Assembly: GCF_003019035.1 (NCBI RefSeq)
Contig: NZ_CP027447.1
Length of the DNA: 64,000 nucleotides
Direction: 5' to 3' (one strand)
Origin: Escherichia coli
Lineage (GTDB): Bacteria; Pseudomonadota; Gammaproteobacteria; Enterobacterales; Enterobacteriaceae
In this document: one piece after another, positions 39,001 through 45,000 of the stretch
Layout of the letters: each line of letters begins with the position of its first letter
Numbering within the stretch: the first letter of the stretch is position 1
Made by a program: the position numbers

Positions 39001-42000
39001 GTGTCTGACGGAACAGGAACAAAGCAAATTAGTCACTCTTGCCGAACGTTTTTTACAGCAAAAGCGGCTTGTTCCTTTACAGGGCTTTGAACTGGATTCA
39101 TTAAGAAGCTGCCGGATAGCACTTCTATTTTGCCTACCCGTTCTGGAGTTAGGACTGGAATGGCTGGATGGTTTTCATGAAGTCTTAATTTATCCTGCGC
39201 CATTTGTGGTCGATGACGAATGGGAAGACGATATCGGTCTGGTGCATAACCAACGTATTGTTCAGTCAGGTCAGAGCTGGCAGCAAGGGCCTATCGTTTT
39301 GAACTGGTTGGATATACAAGATTCTTTTGATGCTTCTGGTTTTAACCTGATTATTCATGAAGTCGCTCATAAGCTGGACACCCGTAACGGCGATCGCGCC
39401 AGCGGAGTTCCCTTTATTCCGTTGCGTGAGGTTGCTGGCTGGGAACACGATCTTCATGCTGCAATGAACAACATTCAGGAAGAAATCGAATTGGTTGGCG
39501 AGAATGCGGCGAGCATTGATGCTTATGCTGCCAGTGATCCTGCTGAATGTTTTGCCGTACTTTCTGAATATTTCTTTAGCGCCCCAGAACTTTTTGCTCC
39601 TCGTTTCCCTTCATTGTGGCAACGTTTCTGCCAATTTTATCAACAAGATCCTTTGCAGAGACTGCATCACGCTAATGATACAGACTCGTTTTCGGCGACG
39701 AATGTTCATTAATTAACAACTTTGCAGATTAATTAACCAATTGAAATGACTTATGAAATTTAGTGTTGACAGACAAGGTACCGCTAAGTAATATGCGCCC
39801 CGTTCACACGATTCCTCTGTAGTTCAGTCGGTAGAACGGCGGACTGTTAATCCGTATGTCACTGGTTCGAGTCCAGTCAGAGGAGCCAAATTCAAGTTTT
39901 CATGCTTATCCATACGTCTCTATATGTTTACGATTCAGTAAGTTAGCGTGAAAATCCTTCCCGATGCGTATCTGGTTTTCTCTCCGCATCGGGATAATTT
40001 GGTGGTCAGATCTGGGGTCAGTTTGGTTCGATTCTGGAGTGACCCCCAAATGTCTTTAAACGATTCTAAAATCCGCACGTTAAAACCTTCTTCCCGTCCG
40101 GTAAAACTCTCCGACTCTCACGGTCTGTATCTGCTCGTCAATCCGGGCGGTTCACGCATCTGGTATCTCAAATATCGTTTCAACGGAAAAGAATCCAGAG
40201 TCAGTCTTGGCGCATACCCGCTGGTCTCACTGGCAGAAGCCAGGCAGCAGCGCGACGGTATCCGTAAGCTGCTGGCGCAGAATATCAACCCGGCGCAACA
40301 GCGCATGGCAGAGAAAACTGCCTGCTCTCCTGAAAAGTGCTTTAAGGCGGTGGCGCTGGCCTGGCACAAAACCAACAAAAAATGGTCGGCTGATTATGCT
40401 GCACGTATTCTCGCCAGCATGGAAAATCATATCTTCCCGGCGATTGGTCATCTGCCCGTTGCCACTCTTAAAACGCAGGATTTCACTGCTTTGTTGCGGG
40501 TTATCGAGGATAAAGGCTTTCTGGAAGTCGCGTCCCGAACACGGCAGCAACTCAGCAACATCATGCGCTATGCCGTTCAGCAGGGACTTACCGACAGTAA
40601 CCCAGCGCAGCATCTGGATGGCGTTGTCGCCTCCCCCGTAAAAAATCACTACCCCGCTTTACCGCTGGAGCGATTGCCTGAACTGCTTGACCGCATTGGC
40701 GACTACCGGCAGGGCCGGGAGTTAACCCGGCTGGCGGTGGTGCTGACGCTGCACCTGTTCATCCGCTCCAGCGAACTGCGTTTCGCCCGCTGGAGCGAGA
40801 TCGATTTCAGGCACAAAATCTGGACCATCCCCGCCACCCGCGAAGCCATCGACAAAGTACGGTTTTCCGATCGTGGCGCCAAAATGCGTAGTCCGCATAT
40901 CGTGCCGCTCTCCCGCCAGGCCATTGCCATTCTGAAACAGATACAGGAACTTTCCGGTCATCTGGATCTGGTGTTTCCCGGTGATCATAACCCGTACAAG
41001 CCAATGAGTGAAAACACCACCAACCGGGCGCTGCGCCTGATGGGGTATGATACGAAAACTGAAATCTGCGGACATGGACTCAGGGCGATGGCCTGTAGCG
41101 CCCTGGTGGAGTCAGATCTCTGGTCACGCGATACGGTGGAGCGGCAAATGAGCCACCAGGAGCGCAACAGCGTGCGTGCGGCATATGTGCATAAGGCGGA
41201 GCATCTGGAGGCCAGAAAAGCCATGATGCAGTGGTGGTCGGATTATCTGGATGTGTGCCGTGAGGGGTATATTGCGCCGTATATTTATGCCCGGCAGCAT
41301 AAGGCGGCCTGAATCAGAAATAACGTAAATCATTAAAAATGTAAAAGCAGATCCTGATTGACCGGGATCTGCTTTTTTGTATTGAGAGGTATTGCCGTTG
41401 TTTTTTATTATTATCAATCAGAAAGTATCTAAAATTATTTGGCCCCAAATAATTTTGGGTGAAAACCAATCAATAAACCACTTATCAATAGGTAAGTACC
41501 GGAAATTTTTCCGGTAGAATATTTTCAGGCGATTGCCTATTAATAAATACATTATTGATAGATAACTACCTTCTGTGATTTGCCCGCAAATCACAGAAGA
41601 TGAAAAACTATCAATACGTGATATTTTCACGGAAATACCAATTAATACTCCAGAATATCTCCTGACCATATACTCTGAAGCCTGTAAGAACTGCATCAGA
41701 TATTCAGAGACCAGATGGATATAAGTCTGAACTTATTTGGTTTCCAATAAGTTCAGGCGAAAACCTATCAATTCATCTGTTTTCAACAGGCAGCCACCTT
41801 CCATGATTAACATGTTAATCATGGAAGGTGAAAAGCTATCAATAATCGATATTCCCACGGAATTACCAATTAATACATCCCAAAAAAACGCGCCATAAAA
41901 TACCGGATAATCTGCTATCTGCGCCAGCATCCCGCCGCTCTACCTGTTCAGGACTGCGCCAGTTTCTGGCCCTTTGATTTTTGGCCCTTTCCGGTCAGGC

Positions 42001-45000
42001 GCTGTTACTCTTATTGCCCCCTTAACCCTTATGACCCTTTCCCTTTCTGGCGCAACCAGTTCATTCGGAAATGAGCCATGACAGTCTGCACCAGATTGTA
42101 TTTTCACCACCGGATAACGATCACAGAGTGCAAAAAATAACATGAAGCACCGAAGATTCTTAATTTATATGAAGCAGGTTATTATGCCAAAAATCGTCGC
42201 AGCATTTTTATAAAATAATGAGACATTCTGTGATTATACAATATATATCACAGGATGCAGAAAAATACAGAGAGAATTATTCAGATATAATTCTGCGTCA
42301 GAATTAATGTGATGCTCCGGTGAATTGAAATTTTAAAATTTCCCGACCCTGTAATGTCGATAAAAACGATTAAAACACCTGTTATCAATAGGTCGCGCTT
42401 CGAGTGATTACAGGGGTAATCACCATAATACCCCGGCAAACCTGCACTAATAAAGCAGGAAATTCTGGTCTGTTGATATTTATTCATCATTCAATAACAA
42501 TTTATTCACCATATTATTACGCAGTAACGACCGGTATCCGGTTGTTTTATTTCATCCGCTCCCTGCGCAAGACTGATCGCTGTCGTTACACAGTAACCGC
42601 ATTATTTTGCGCCATTCATGATATCCGTCATTCCTCCTTCCATCGGTATCCATACACCTGTTTCACCCAGCGTCCGCGACCGTCGCCGTGGCCCAGATCC
42701 GTCGCCGTCAGCGCCAGCGATTCTTTTTCGCTGAATCCCTGCGCCAGATAATGGCGGATCGCGTCCTGCGCCCACACATAACGCAGCGAGTGCGGGGAGT
42801 ATTCGCCCGTCAACCCAACTTTAGTCGCCTGTTTATGCCAGTGATTCATGGCTGCTTTAAGGTCGGGTTTGTCGATCAGCCTGCCATTGTGTCGATCCGC
42901 GACCAGTAAGGCCTTTTCAAGAGCGTTCCTGACTGCGCCAGTCTCCAGGACTGTTGTGTGGCGGGGACGCCCGCCTTTGGTGCCAAATACCTCTTTTAGC
43001 CGGGTTTCACCGCGCTCAATGGCTTTCAGCCACGTTTTCAGCGACTGTGAACTCTGTACCGCCTCCTGCGAACGCAGTCCCATCAGACGCGCGATCTCCA
43101 GCGCCGCAGCCAGCCCCGCATCCTCAGCGCGGGCTTTCTCCATCACCTGCTGGTAATGTTCCGGCGTGATGGCGCGGCGCGTGCCGTTGCGTGAAGCGCC
43201 CGACACCCCCAGTGCCTTATTGGTCAGGCGTGGATGCTCCACCACCTGCCTGCGTCCAGCCTGTCTCAGCACGGATCGCAGCGCTGCCATTTCGTTTTGC
43301 AGCGTTCGTAAACCAATATCCTGCTCCAGCCGCTCCTGAATGTAGCATTCGATATGGCGAACCCTGATCTGCTCCACCCGCTGGATCTGGATATTCAGCG
43401 CCCGTAAATGTTCACTGAACCGTTTTGTAATATGGATACGGTCATTCACCGTTTTGAAGCTGCCGCCTGCTTTCTTCGCCAGTGCTTTCATTTCACTGCT
43501 TAATTTACTCATGAATCCCCCTGCAACAAAAAACAAACAGTCTCCGGCGTGTGCTTTTTGGCTGCGCCAGAACGATACCTTCACGCCGGAGTAGCAGTTT
43601 GTTGAGGTTTAGGGAGTTTCAGGCTGTACGCGGTACAGACTGCCTGACGAAGCAGGGGTGTCTCCGGGGCGTCGTGCCCCCCTCGGTATCGATCTTTTTC
43701 TCCTTTACTCTGAACTGACAGCGGCCCCAAAGGGCATGTCAGACGGCGGAAATATGGCGCAGGCCGGAACTGGCGCGGCTTGCGGTGGTATGTTATGCGG
43801 CGTCACTTTGCTTTTTCGCTGACGCGATCAAAGTGACGCCTCGTCTGGTGCAGGGGGGTAAACATTGCGTTGCTGGTGCAGTATTCGAAAATTAACAGTC
43901 TGGTGCAGGTTAACGGTCACGCGGCAGCAAAGCCTGGTGGCAATGCAGGCCGCAGCCCGTCATGTAAAGGGCGCTGGAAATCAGCAGGGTATAAGTGGGC
44001 CGGAGAAATTCCGGCAAAGAAAAACCGTTCAGCCGGTGAAGGCCGTTGCCGTTAAGCGGTGACGATGGGGCTGTCCGGTGTGTAATTACTTCGCCTCAAA
44101 CGCTTTCGCGTTCCGGTATTGCGGAGGTCGTACCGGTAGCAAGGGCTGGTCGTCCTGATAAATCAGGGGCTTCTTGCAGACCATGAAGCCAAAGGGTGCC
44201 CGAAGGCATAGTGCAGGAGGGAGATTACACCGTTATTTCTGGCGCAGAAAGAAAAAATGTTTTTTGTGTTTAAAAGATTGTTTGCTTACTTCGTGACTGA
44301 AAAACTGCCGCGCTTCGCTTGTCTTCTCCCGGCTCTCCGCCAGCAGCAACGCTGGCAGAAAGCCGGGAGAGCCTGATTTTACCGTAACCGTGTTCCTGAC
44401 GCTTCTGCCATCAGGAGCGCCGCTCTCGCATAAGTCTTACAATGCGGCGGCCCTGATTATCGAAGTATCTGGACGGCCAGATAATTTCCGGTGCTGTTTC
44501 CAGCACATCCGCAATCAGTTTTTCGCCGCGCGGCCAGGAGCGGGTCAGCGCGTTTGCCAGCGTGGAAGACGCCAGTCCGGCCCTGCGTGAAACCTCAGCC
44601 AGCGACGCTCCCTTTTTTCTCAGACCCGCAATAATATCGGCAGGATGCCAGTCCGGTTGTATCATGATGTCACCCCGCTGTCAGCCTGCACGTCGTCAGC
44701 GGTACGTATCCAGCGCGGAGCGTTCAACTCGTCGGCAAAATACCAGACCAGTTCACACAGTAATCCGGTCAGCGTTTTTTCGGTTTCCGGCAGGAGTGAG
44801 CGCCCGTTCAGAACCTGCGTCAGTGCCAGGCAATAATCGCAGAGTGGTTCTGCATCGGGTGTAAAACCGGATGTGACATCAGGGAACGTGTCTACAGTAA
44901 AACGGTCGATCAGATGCGGTGGGATCGGCTCGTTCAGCGTGGGGCGCAGCAGCGCAAGACAGGTGTTAAGTCTGCCGCAGAGCGCCATTTTCAGTACCGG

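What the first reader, a model, noticed from the sequence alone, without database searches (positions are those of the whole stretch)
41320..42620. 1.3 kb non-coding region of five different hairpins and a repeated 52-bp module
Seen: no credible ORF; five distinct palindromes (41444-41459, 41497-41516, 41570-41599, 41729-41755 and a 32-bp perfect palindrome at 41797-41828). Two are followed by a conserved module tgaaaaNctatcaataN3gatattN2cacggaaNtaccaattaatac (41600-41651 and 41829-41880), with partial copies of the tatcaata motif after other hairpins. Variable hairpin plus constant flank is not the pattern of CRISPR, REP elements or attC sites as I know them. Inference: could be a family of small RNAs, an origin of transfer or replication, or arrayed binding sites for the adjacent recombinase or Ner-like proteins.
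Basis: seen in the sequence. Interest (0 to 1): 0.55.

Follow-up and report, generated by a model that had tools for sequence, protein, structure and literature searches.

The report
Stem-loop repeat array in mobilizable island
The hairpins and the repeated module are real and conserved, and form an undescribed non-coding stem-loop array inserted in the cargo slot of an E. coli Asn-tRNA genomic island, between its integrase gene and a relaxase-like recombinase gene; its function is not established.

Summary
The window is E. coli chromosome. The 1.3 kb lies between a P4-type integrase gene at tRNA-Asn and a convergent Integrase_1 (PF12835/PF12834) gene. Published work uses PF12835 as the signature of MpsA/MOB_M tyrosine-recombinase-like relaxases.

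The region has four parts:
- a bidirectional int terminator;
- an AT-rich hairpin array (41400-41900);
- a cross-genus conserved GC-rich block with CTGCRCCAG and GGCCCTTT repeats (41900-42100);
- a second AT-rich segment with a top-strand terminator-like hairpin.

The "five different hairpins" are two paralogous pairs (A1/A2, B1/B2) plus one extra. They arose by tandem duplication of a two-hairpin unit. Each A or B hairpin is followed by GAAAANCTATCAAT.

The array occurs in about 8-10% of complete E. coli genomes, in E. whittamii, Pseudocitrobacter and metagenomes, with 1-5 hairpins. Salmonella, Klebsiella, E. albertii and Enterobacter relatives with the same gene pair lack it. Other relatives carry defence-like genes in that slot.

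Stems keep pairing through compensatory changes, and wobble mismatches favour the top strand. There is no ORF, Rfam, plasmid, phage or literature match.

Best guess (confidence about 0.3): accessory structured top-strand RNA. Rivals are a single-stranded-DNA signal, functionless palindromic filler, or protein-binding sites. It is not the island's primary oriT.

The parts
40050..41312 (+). Context: P4-type tyrosine integrase gene, next to tRNA-Asn (39813-39888)
   Evidence: RefSeq annotation of the identical strain SCU-301; NCBIfam PRK09692 and PHROG integrase hits; tRNA found.
41343..41376 (.). Bidirectional intrinsic terminator of int (A-tract, 12-bp stem, T-tract). It is the left border of the variable slot.
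   Evidence: (I14). Conserved in E. coli, Salmonella, Klebsiella and Citrobacter relatives.
41382..41411 (+). Sigma-70-like promoter candidate TTGAGA-18-TATTAT reading into the array
   Evidence: 10 of 12 matches. The hexamers are conserved among alleles, but the spacer varies from 17 to 21 nt, so this is a weak candidate.
41431..41456 (+). Hairpin A1 (AAAATTATTTGG-CC-CCAAATAATTTT). It extends to about 41426-41461 through G.T wobbles on the top strand.
   Evidence: (I16). Other alleles carry TTCAC/GTGAA in place of TTTGG/CCAAA, a three-position compensatory swap.
41461..41492 (+). A-type flank, copy 1: GAAAACCAATCAATAAACCACTTATCAATAGG
   Evidence: (D2, D3).
41497..41516 (+). Hairpin hp2 (TACCGGAAA-TT-TTTCCGGTA) with a U-rich tail. 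It lies in a 70-nt piece found only in unit I.
   Evidence: It is perfect only in this allele; other alleles carry C.A mismatches.
41553..41616 (+). Hairpin B1. The inner palindrome is 41570-41599. The outer arms are TATTGATAG and CTATCAATA.
   Evidence: I2; DNA fold -16.7 kcal/mol, z -9.8.
41600..41651 (+). B-type module, copy 1: TGAAAAACTATCAATACGTGATATTTTCACGGAAATACCAATTAATAC
   Evidence: (D1, D15).
41727..41758 (+). Hairpin A2, the paralogue of A1
   Evidence: (D3, I5).
41759..41790 (+). A-type flank, copy 2: GAAAACCTATCAATTCATCTGTTTTCAACAGG
   Evidence: (D2, D3).
41795..41830 (+). Hairpin B2, a 36-bp perfect palindrome and the paralogue of B1
   Evidence: I4; z -9.7. Other alleles have CCGTG..CACGG where the window has CCATG..CATGG, with a G.T intermediate allele.
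41829..41880 (+). B-type module, copy 2
   Evidence: B1 and B2 modules are 85% identical, against about 63% for the rest of the duplicated 131 nt (counted).
41900..42100 (.). Conserved GC-rich block. It holds CTGCRCCAG at 41919, 41954 and 42086 (+) and at 42047 (-, 1 mismatch), and GGCCCTTT-like repeats at 41968, 41983 and 42033.
   Evidence: (D4, D8). Also present in Klebsiella, Salmonella, Citrobacter and Enterobacter relatives. Identity is 0.88-0.94 even where codon third positions are only 0.72 identical. It is not coding in E. coli.
42101..42620 (.). Second AT-rich segment. It contains a 16-bp AT palindrome (42327-42342), another TTATCAATA (42382-42390) and further inverted repeats. It evolves about as fast as codon third positions.
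42473..42555 (+). Promoter-like TTGATA-17-AACAAT (42473-42501) followed by a top-strand terminator-like hairpin (42526-42546 plus TTTTATTTCAT). This is a candidate short RNA that stops before the relaxase-like gene.
   Evidence: Stem variants are CCGG/CCGG versus CAGG/CCTG between alleles.
42628..43512 (-). Context: Integrase_1 / Phage_int_SAM_2 tyrosine recombinase (MpsA/MOB_M-like according to the literature), preceded by the EFASI RNA motif (43569-43697)
   Evidence: Literature.

Best explanation
The hairpin/module stretch (about 41400-41900) is a lineage-specific, non-coding accessory insert. It sits in the variable cargo slot of a small Asn-tRNA integrative, probably mobilizable, island, exactly between the int terminator and the first CTGCACCAG repeat of the conserved backbone.

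Its building block is a stem-loop followed on its 3' side by a constant single-stranded motif, GAAAANCTATCAAT. This motif is extended in B units to a 52-nt module that contains a small AUUYY-CAC-GGAAU hairpin. Units multiplied by tandem duplication and are lost by slippage or recombination between the constant motifs.

I propose that it works as a folded single strand of the top strand, most likely an RNA. The RNA would be transcribed rightwards, either from the promoter-like site just after the int terminator or as int read-through. In it, variable stems display conserved unpaired motifs to a sequence-specific partner, either a protein or another RNA.

Shown: the anatomy, the distribution, the accessory status, the compensatory stem evolution, the extra conservation of the module, and the absence of coding signal or of any known family.

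Inferred: transcription, the strand, and any partner or effect. For example, it could modulate int or relaxase-like gene expression, or act as non-coding cargo.
For: 1. Structure far beyond chance.
2. Pairing is kept by double changes. In 18 distinct B units, 94.4% of cells are paired, 5 of 16 pairs change on both sides, and 0 of 500 shuffles reach the observed paired fraction or covariation score. On the two-hairpin unit, RNAalifold finds 6 compensatory pairs.
3. One-sided changes are mostly G.T on the top strand. Seven pair-columns show this, against one with A.C. The top strand is 96.6% paired and the bottom strand 90.9%. The RNAalifold covariation term is -1.27 on the + strand and -0.12 on the - strand.
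4. The YTATCAATA motif is strongly oriented. Of the 11 matches with at most 1 mismatch between 41380 and 42390, 8 are on the + strand.
5. The module is more conserved between paralogues (85%) than the neighbouring duplicated sequence (about 63%). Between alleles the array is more conserved (0.885-0.944) than codon third positions of the flanking genes (0.78-0.87).
6. Four of the five terminator-like sites in the region are on the + strand. One of them, just before the relaxase-like gene, shows a compensatory stem change.
7. The slot is accessory and elsewhere holds cargo genes, which fits a dispensable trans- or cis-modulating element.
8. No ORF support.
Against: - No expression data.
- The promoter candidate has a 17-21 nt spacer among alleles.
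- No convincing terminator follows the units in the one- and two-hairpin alleles.
- The palindromes are symmetric almost to their centre, which is as typical of DNA-level processes as of RNA.
- hp2 decays through C.A mismatches in other alleles, and the outer B1 pair is C.A. The strand asymmetry is therefore only suggestive (p about 0.035, not corrected for relatedness).
- Quasi-palindrome template switching could produce 'compensatory' changes without selection.
- No Rfam match.
- No complementarity to the island's C4 or EFASI RNAs beyond shuffles.
Confidence: 0.3

Rival explanations
1. Single-stranded-DNA signal. The hairpin-plus-motif units would fold in the strand that is transferred by conjugation (or displaced by rolling-circle replication) after the island excises. 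They would then act as priming or complementary-strand initiation sites, or as secondary recognition or termination sites for the adjacent MOB_M-type relaxase-like protein. The geometry, a hairpin followed 3' by a conserved sequence, is that of relaxase and sso/ssi signals.
For: The neighbour gene belongs to the family used as the MpsA/MOB_M signature. The structure is strand-biased. If the usual rule holds that the relaxase gene is transferred last, its template strand, which is the window's + strand, would be the transferred strand (inference from F/RP4-type systems). The near-perfect palindromes fold well with DNA parameters.
Against: Relatives with 73-90% identical relaxase-like proteins and the same integrase type lack the array entirely; their spacers are about 190-240 bp. 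It is therefore not required for transfer. There is no similarity to any plasmid or phage sequence, even at E<=10. The transfer direction and nick site of MOB_M systems are unknown. Four to five same-orientation nick-like sites would fragment a transferred element.
Confidence: 0.2
2. Functionless filler. The array would be AT-rich palindromic DNA that entered the cargo slot (a cassette remnant) and persists. Quasi-palindrome template switching would perfect the palindromes, and slippage between the 15-nt direct repeats would change copy number.
For: Presence and absence vary, with 1-5 hairpins among alleles and hybrid junctions lying exactly in the constant motif. hp2 and several A hairpins are imperfect in other alleles. 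The second AT-rich segment evolves about as fast as codon third positions. For the one- and two-hairpin alleles, array identity (0.72-0.81) is close to third-position identity. The integrase or the relaxase-like gene is a pseudogene in several carriers.
Against: Among the five-hairpin alleles the array diverges only about half as much as codon third positions. The module is better conserved than the adjacent duplicated sequence. The excess of top-strand G.T over A.C mismatches is not expected from symmetric DNA-level processes. The unit is retained in Pseudocitrobacter.
Confidence: 0.25
3. Array of double-stranded binding sites. The YTATCAATA repeats or the palindromes themselves would be bound by an island protein (Ner-like HTH, the 153-aa protein, a recombinase) or by a nucleoid protein such as H-NS, to silence or regulate int and the relaxase-like gene.
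For: About 10 copies of YTATCAATA lie in 1 kb. The sequence is AT-rich (33-36% GC) and contains TCGATA(T/A)-type stretches that resemble the H-NS nucleation motif (from memory). A Ner-like regulator is encoded nearby.
Against: The stem sequences covary instead of being conserved. Motif spacing is irregular (56, 15, 55, 71, 157, 71 nt). The motifs are nearly all in one orientation. The candidate island proteins are also present in relatives that lack the array. The ATCAA motifs do not fit the IHF consensus (read).
Confidence: 0.1
4. Primary origin of transfer or of replication of the island.
For: Inverted repeats, an AT-rich stretch and iteron-like repeats next to a relaxase-like gene.
Against: The array is absent from close relatives of the island. 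In SGI1 the oriT is GC-rich and lies upstream of mpsA, and a survey describes the first large intergenic region upstream of the relaxase gene as the most usual location. No replication initiator is evident. There is no plasmid similarity. The more plausible cis site here is the conserved CTGCRCCAG-repeat DNA on both sides of the EFASI/relaxase-like unit.
Confidence: 0.05

Closest known systems
SGI1 mobilisation module (oriT - sgm-sRNA - mpsA - mpsB) and other MOB_M (tyrosine-recombinase-like relaxase) modules
   Same: The flanking gene is of the Integrase_1 (PF12835) family. It sits next to a site-specific integrase. A structured RNA motif (EFASI) lies immediately upstream, where SGI1 encodes sgm-sRNA. 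Inverted-repeat-rich non-coding DNA lies nearby.
   Different: The hairpin array lies downstream of the relaxase-like gene, where SGI1 has mpsB. It is AT-rich, whereas oriT-SGI1 is GC-rich. It is missing from close relatives.
BIME/REP clusters of enterobacteria
   Same: Palindromic units are combined with conserved linker motifs. They lie between convergent genes. Copy number varies by recombination.
   Different: The array is not dispersed. It is found only at this island locus in E. coli genomes. It is AT-rich rather than GC-rich. There is no GTAG-type REP head. The units share one orientation.
Integron attC sites / cassette arrays
   Same: Variable imperfect palindromes with constant flanking sequence, strand-specific folding, an adjacent tyrosine recombinase, and a slot that holds different cargo in different relatives.
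   Different: No R''/L''/L'/R' organisation or GTTRRRY core. The stems lack extrahelical bases. The array is at the 3' end of the recombinase gene. Cargo genes in relatives are not flanked by such sites.
Single-strand origins (sso) / ssi signals and relaxase nic regions
   Same: Orientation-dependent stem-loops with conserved unpaired motifs 3' of a hairpin, in a conjugation-related element.
   Different: No sequence similarity to plasmids was detected. It is dispensable in relatives. Multiple tandem copies occur. Nothing was tested functionally.
Multi-hairpin regulatory or sponge sRNAs (CsrB/RsmZ type) and tandem paralogous sRNAs
   Same: Repeated short single-stranded motifs are presented between stem-loops. 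Paralogous units have variable stems and a conserved unpaired region.
   Different: No GGA-loop motifs. No defined promoter/terminator pair per unit. No Rfam family. No known binding protein.

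Membership tests
CRISPR array | Regularly spaced identical direct repeats of 23-50 bp separated by unique spacers of similar length | tested here: not met
   TRF finds only a 9-nt, 2-copy repeat. The direct-repeat families have irregular spacing: 70, 228 and 602 nt for the four-copy 32-nt family, and 228 or 298 nt for the duplicated unit. The conserved parts are the flanks, not the hairpins.
REP/BIME or MITE (dispersed repeat) | Many copies dispersed around the genome | tested here: not met
   blastn at word size 11 against 5,426 complete E. 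coli genomes finds the array in only 422 genomes, with 1-4 places per genome. The full region gives 1-2 places per genome. All carrier loci inspected were at an Asn-tRNA island. The window holds no other copies.
Integron attC / cassette array | R''-L''...L'-R' sites with a GTTRRRY core and extrahelical bases, with cargo cassettes bounded by such sites | tested here: not met
   The stems are perfect or near-perfect and have no bulged bases. No GTTRRRY sits at the hairpin feet. Cargo genes in the Lonsdalea and Citrobacter relatives are not flanked by hairpin+module sites.
Known RNA family (Rfam 15) | Match to a covariance model at or near its gathering score | tested here: not met
   No gathering-level hit in 41300-42650. 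The best sub-threshold hits are eukaryotic miRNA or snoRNA models at 24-32 bits against thresholds of 56-211.
Origin of transfer of a MOB_M (MpsA-type) module | Conserved together with the relaxase gene among related elements | tested here: not met
   Salmonella, Klebsiella, E. albertii and Enterobacter islands whose Integrase_1 proteins are 73-78% identical have 190-240 bp spacers without the array.
Origin of transfer of a MOB_M (MpsA-type) module | Confers mobilisation in cis and is nicked by the relaxase | not testable with these tools
   This needs mating assays and nicking assays.
oriT or centromere mimic of a helper plasmid | Sequence similarity to a plasmid cis-site | tested here: not met
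   No blastn match in 72,556 plasmids or 50,697 phage records at the default threshold, and only chance-level matches of 19-36 nt at E<=10.
Intrinsic terminators | GC-rich stem followed by a U-tract on the transcribed strand | tested here: inconclusive
   This is met by 41343-41376 (the int terminator) and reasonably by 42526-42546. hp2 is marginal. The A and B hairpins are followed by GNGAAAA rather than a T-run.
Iteron-type replication origin | Regularly phased iterons, a cognate initiator gene and an AT-rich unwinding element | tested here: inconclusive
   Repeats exist (YTATCAATA, CTGCRCCAG, GGCCCTTT) but their spacing is irregular. No initiator gene was recognised among the neighbours.
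MOB_M / MpsA-like relaxase (the neighbouring protein) | Integrase_1 (PF12835) catalytic domain with a tyrosine-recombinase active site | tested here: met
   PF12835 at E 8.9e-60 and PF12834 at E 1.5e-40. The motifs GLRSQE, HSLRY, LGH and VYGY are readable in the translation. The link from PF12835 to MpsA comes from the literature. Direct comparison with MpsA, and relaxase activity itself, were not tested.
Protein-coding gene or pseudogene | A conserved reading frame or similarity to a protein family | tested here: not met
   No family hits. Frames are broken by 1-nt indels between alleles. The region is unannotated in most RefSeq genomes.

The most novel reading that the evidence does not exclude
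The hairpin-plus-GAAAANCTATCAAT units are a new class of strand-specific cis or trans element carried as non-coding cargo by MOB_M-type mobilizable islands. They would be read on a single strand, either RNA or the transferred DNA strand. The effect could be to modulate priming, establishment, or int/relaxase expression after transfer.
Probability: 0.2. Interest if true: 0.65.

Novelty: new variant of a known kind. Interest (0 to 1): 0.4.

Why it matters
A 2026 preprint reports MOB_M (tyrosine-recombinase-like) relaxases as the most common relaxases in the chromosomes of the six species it surveyed, yet almost nothing is known about their cis sites and RNAs. This locus offers a compact natural series: the same int/relaxase-like pair with no insert, with a one-, two- or five-hairpin array, or with defence-like genes. 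Such a series makes it straightforward to test what non-coding DNA in the slot does.

If the array is a functional single-stranded element, it adds a new type of stem-loop/motif repeat to the small set known (REP/BIME, attC, sso/ssi). If it is filler, it is a clean example of how palindromes and short direct repeats drive copy-number change.

The side observations may be the more testable leads. One is that EFASI sits where SGI1 encodes its essential sgm-sRNA. The other is that inverted CTGCRCCAG repeat arrays bracket the EFASI/relaxase-like unit.

Tried and rejected
- Coding remnant. Nine ORFs gave no PHROG or NCBIfam hits. A metagenomic gene start 'MKLSIEDITTQ...' matched the DNA pattern, but it belongs to unrelated AT-rich organisms, and a few chance matches are expected for a pattern with only 18 fixed bases. 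A short ATG ORF after B1 is not conserved in B2 or in other alleles.
- Rfam families: none.
- Target or decoy for the island's C4 or EFASI RNAs. Duplex energies are no better than shuffles.
- Mimic of a plasmid or phage oriT or parS: no similarity.
- Integron-like cassette sites: cargo in relatives is not flanked by such sites.
- Dispersed repeat or MITE: found only at this locus.
- IHF sites, DnaA boxes, FNR/CRP boxes, pC194-type CTTGATA nick sites and the ISDra2 TTGAT target. These were considered from memory. They match only partly, or at the wrong spacing, when read, and were not pursued.
- Tyrosine-recombinase core sites (arms plus an 8-bp spacer). The geometry fits. However, the symmetry runs through the spacer and the arms covary, which favours a hairpin reading.
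- Small ORF in the GC block. It is intact in Salmonella, Klebsiella and C. freundii, but in E. coli alleles it is frame-shifted or lacks a start.
- Dead ends. A protein-based scan of viral contigs returned only a contig already held. The literature search for 'STAXI' was swamped by psychology papers. pIGRK could not be fetched for a MobK comparison. An exact-sequence search of the literature found nothing.

Full report
WHERE THE WINDOW COMES FROM

The window is Escherichia coli chromosome. The 1.3 kb is 100% identical to strain SCU-301 and 80-95% identical to loci in 520 of 5,426 complete E. coli genomes. All of these are chromosomal, with 1-2 places per genome. A more sensitive search with the hairpin part alone finds 422 genomes. 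It finds nothing in 72,556 plasmids or 50,697 phage records.

GENE CONTEXT

In window order the locus reads:
- tRNA-Asn, 39813-39888 (+);
- a P4-type integrase, 40050-41312 (+);
- the finding;
- a convergent 294-aa tyrosine recombinase, 42628-43512 (-), with Pfam Integrase_1 (PF12835, E 9e-60) plus Phage_int_SAM_2 (PF12834);
- the EFASI RNA motif directly upstream of that gene, 43569-43697 (-);
- a Ner/SfsB-like HTH protein;
- a 153-aa protein of unknown function;
- a C4-type antisense RNA with its a1/b1 targets;
- RHS or T6SS cargo.

The same left-end module sits at different Asn-tRNA genes with different cargo.

THE OBSERVATION

All five palindromes and both copies of the 52-nt module are there. 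Two coordinates need correcting:
- The first palindrome is 41431-41456.
- The perfect palindrome is 36 bp (41795-41830).

The stretch 41400-41900 folds with z = -11.75 on the + strand and -8.89 on the - strand. Single hairpins folded as DNA give z from -3.4 to -9.8.

GAAAANCTATCAATA occurs four times with at most 1 mismatch. Each copy lies directly 3' of a hairpin on the + strand, and there are no such copies elsewhere in the 64 kb.

The hairpins are not five unrelated ones. A1/A2 and B1/B2 are paralogues within a tandem duplication (start-to-start spacing 228 and 298 nt). hp2 lies in a 70-nt piece found only in unit I.

B1 is the core of a 64-nt quasi-palindrome. Its outer arms are TATTGATAG and CTATCAATA, so the constant flank is partly the outer arm of a larger hairpin.

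No ORF is credible.

THE 1.3 KB IS A MOSAIC

Aligning seven E. coli alleles and comparing other genera gives four parts.

(a) The bidirectional int terminator (41343-41376). It is conserved everywhere.

(b) The AT-rich hairpin array. It is present in E. coli, E. whittamii, Pseudocitrobacter corydidari and about 35 metagenome contigs.

(c) A GC-rich block (41900-42100) with CTGCRCCAG and GGCCCTTT repeats.
- It is also present in Klebsiella, Salmonella, Citrobacter and Enterobacter relatives.
- It stays 88-94% identical even where codon third positions of the flanking genes are only 72% identical.
- It is not coding in E. coli.

(d) A second AT-rich segment that evolves about as fast as third positions.

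In Salmonella, E. albertii, Enterobacter and Klebsiella the whole integrase-to-recombinase spacer is only 190-240 bp. There it consists of (a) plus (c).

In Lonsdalea, Citrobacter telavivensis and C. freundii the same slot holds genes:
- Lonsdalea: Lit protease and DarTG.
- C. telavivensis: NA-iREase2 and a RelA_SpoT-domain gene.
- C. freundii: an AAA_28 ATPase.

In C. freundii the inserted gene is bracketed by a 16-17 bp duplication, TCTGCTTTTT(T)ATTTG. It lies exactly at the point where the E. coli array begins. The array is therefore an accessory insert in a cargo slot, not part of the island's conserved core.

ARCHITECTURES

Twenty-two distinct alleles were recovered. They fall into four forms:
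- One hairpin: an A-type stem joined directly to a B-type flank.
- Two hairpins (A+B): strains E7-1N7 and STLIN_13, and Pseudocitrobacter.
- A recombinant in E. whittamii: the B1 stem with the B2 flank.
- Five-hairpin duplicated forms, as in the window.

All hybrid junctions lie inside GAAAANCTATCAATA. This fits slippage or recombination between these short direct repeats.

One Salmonella allele carries a different stem, CGTACAAAAAATTTTGG-GG-CCAAAATTTTTTGTACG, followed by CAAATCTATCAAT.

EVIDENCE FOR CONSTRAINT

In 18 distinct B units:
- 94.4% of cells are paired;
- 5 of 16 pairs change on both sides, for example C-G to U-A, G-C to A-U and A-U to G-C;
- 0 of 500 shuffles reach the observed paired fraction or covariation score.

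A-type stems swap TTTGG/CCAAA for TTCAC/GTGAA. On the two-hairpin unit, RNAalifold finds 6 compensatory pairs.

The B module is 85% identical between paralogues, against about 63% for the rest of the duplicated 131 nt (counted).

Between five-hairpin alleles the array is 88.5-94.4% identical. Third codon positions of the flanking genes are 78-87% identical.

Caveats:
- For the one- and two-hairpin alleles, array identity is close to third-position identity.
- hp2 is perfect only in the window allele and decays elsewhere.
- Quasi-palindrome template switching, a known mutational process in E. coli (from established knowledge), can make changes look compensatory without selection.

WHICH STRAND

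One-sided stem changes are mostly G.T on the top strand. Seven pair-columns show this, against one with A.C. The top strand is 96.6% paired and the bottom strand 90.9%, with a one-sided binomial p of 0.035 that is not corrected for relatedness.

The RNAalifold covariation term is -1.27 on the + strand and -0.12 on the - strand.

Of the 11 YTATCAATA matches with at most 1 mismatch between 41380 and 42390, 8 are on the + strand. Four of the five terminator-like sites are on the + strand. One of them, 42526-42546, has stem variants CCGG/CCGG versus CAGG/CCTG between alleles and a T-run, and sits just before the recombinase gene.

Against this, hp2 and the outer B1 pair show C.A mismatches. I read the strand bias as suggestive, not established.

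WHAT IT IS NOT

- Not CRISPR.
- Not a dispersed REP or MITE.
- Not attC.
- Not any Rfam family.
- Not a copy of a plasmid or phage cis-site.
- Not a pairing partner of the island's C4 or EFASI RNAs.
- Not reported by sequence in the searchable literature.

THE NEIGHBOUR AND THE TRANSFER HYPOTHESIS

PF12835 is the signature that Burrus and colleagues use for MpsA, the tyrosine-recombinase-like relaxase of SGI1 (PMC10484663). A 2026 preprint reports the following for such MOB_M relaxases:
- They are the most common relaxases in chromosomes.
- 96% lie next to an integrase.
- Machineries with MOB_M carry the oriT between the mating-pore operon and the relaxase gene.

The same preprint takes the first large intergenic region upstream of a relaxase gene as the most usual oriT location.

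In SGI1 the order is oriT (125 bp, GC-rich, with inverted repeats), sgm-sRNA, mpsA, mpsB (PMC6414798 and PMC9299015).

I could not obtain an MpsA sequence, so the link rests on the Pfam match and the literature.

By analogy, the island's primary oriT should lie upstream of the recombinase gene, near EFASI, and not in the finding. The absence of the array from close relatives argues the same.

A role on the transferred single strand remains possible but untested. Under the usual rule that the relaxase gene enters last, the transferred strand would be the window's + strand. That step is an inference.

VERDICT

The feature is real, non-random, lineage-restricted and previously undescribed. It is an accessory stem-loop/motif repeat array in the cargo slot of an Asn-tRNA island that carries a MOB_M-like gene.

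| Explanation | Confidence |
|---|---|
| Structured top-strand RNA presenting conserved unpaired motifs | 0.30 |
| Functionless palindromic filler | 0.25 |
| Single-stranded-DNA signal of the transferred strand | 0.20 |
| Double-stranded protein-binding array | 0.10 |
| Primary oriT or oriV | 0.05 |

The remaining weight covers mechanisms I did not think of. I rate it a new variant of a known kind (stem-loop repeat elements of mobile-element intergenic DNA), with interest 0.4.

Noticed in passing
window 43569-43697 (-) and 42628-43512 (-): The EFASI RNA motif (97 bits; its Rfam summary, as quoted in the paper read, says the function is not yet known) ends 57 nt upstream of the Integrase_1/MOB_M-like gene. 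This is the position where SGI1 encodes sgm-sRNA, the small RNA essential for MpsA-dependent mobilisation (PMC9299015). EFASI may be the counterpart of sgm-sRNA, or part of the oriT region.
   Followed up: partly
window 41919-42094 (+) and 43754-43908, 44239-44247 (-): CTGCRCCAG repeats flank the EFASI/relaxase-like unit in inverted orientation. Three tandem copies at 27-28 nt spacing lie upstream of EFASI (43845, 43873, 43900), and more lie at 43754, 43770 and 44239. Copies at 41919, 41954 and 42086 lie downstream. 35-nt arms at 41943-41977 and 43739-43773 are 71% complementary. These are candidate binding or oriT sites for the recombinase-like protein. Copies inside coding sequence are probably codon-usage noise (CTG-GCG-CAG).
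   Followed up: partly
L068 4882-5872 (C. freundii); window 41376-41382: The slot between the int terminator and the first TGCACCAG is a site-specific-looking insertion point. In C. freundii an AAA_28 gene is bracketed by a 16-17 bp duplication, TCTGCTTTTT(T)ATTTG. Lonsdalea and Citrobacter telavivensis carry Lit, DarTG, RelA_SpoT and NA-iREase2 genes in the slot. It looks like a small cargo or defence hotspot.
   Followed up: partly
window 42473-42555 (+): A promoter-like TTGATA-17-AACAAT is followed by a hairpin with a T-run, and the stem shows variants CCGG/CCGG versus CAGG/CCTG between alleles. This could be a roughly 50-nt top-strand RNA antisense to the 3' UTR of the relaxase-like gene.
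   Followed up: partly
L012 about 6885-6975, L014, L063 5903-6040, L068: In Salmonella, Klebsiella, C. freundii and E. albertii a short basic ORF (MKSKRPKGKG.LRVTAPDRK.PK...) starts about 20 nt after the relaxase-like gene, where SGI1 has mpsB. In E. coli alleles it is frame-shifted or lacks a start, yet the DNA stays conserved.
   Followed up: partly
window 45177-45361 (-): A C4 antisense RNA (69 bits) lies with a1/b1 targets and a sub-threshold isrK match upstream of the 153-aa and Ner-like genes. An 'ash family' gene is annotated in one relative. Together these resemble a P4/P1-like immunity cassette in a non-phage island.
   Followed up: no
L003, L004, L005, L007, L066: The integrase or the relaxase-like gene is a pseudogene (frameshift or internal stop) in several carriers, and one locus is truncated by IS1. 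Many copies of the island are decaying.
   Followed up: no
window 21523-21715 (-) and 34225-34276 (+): Rfam hits to STnc100 and DicF suggest prophage-derived DNA upstream of the island.
   Followed up: no
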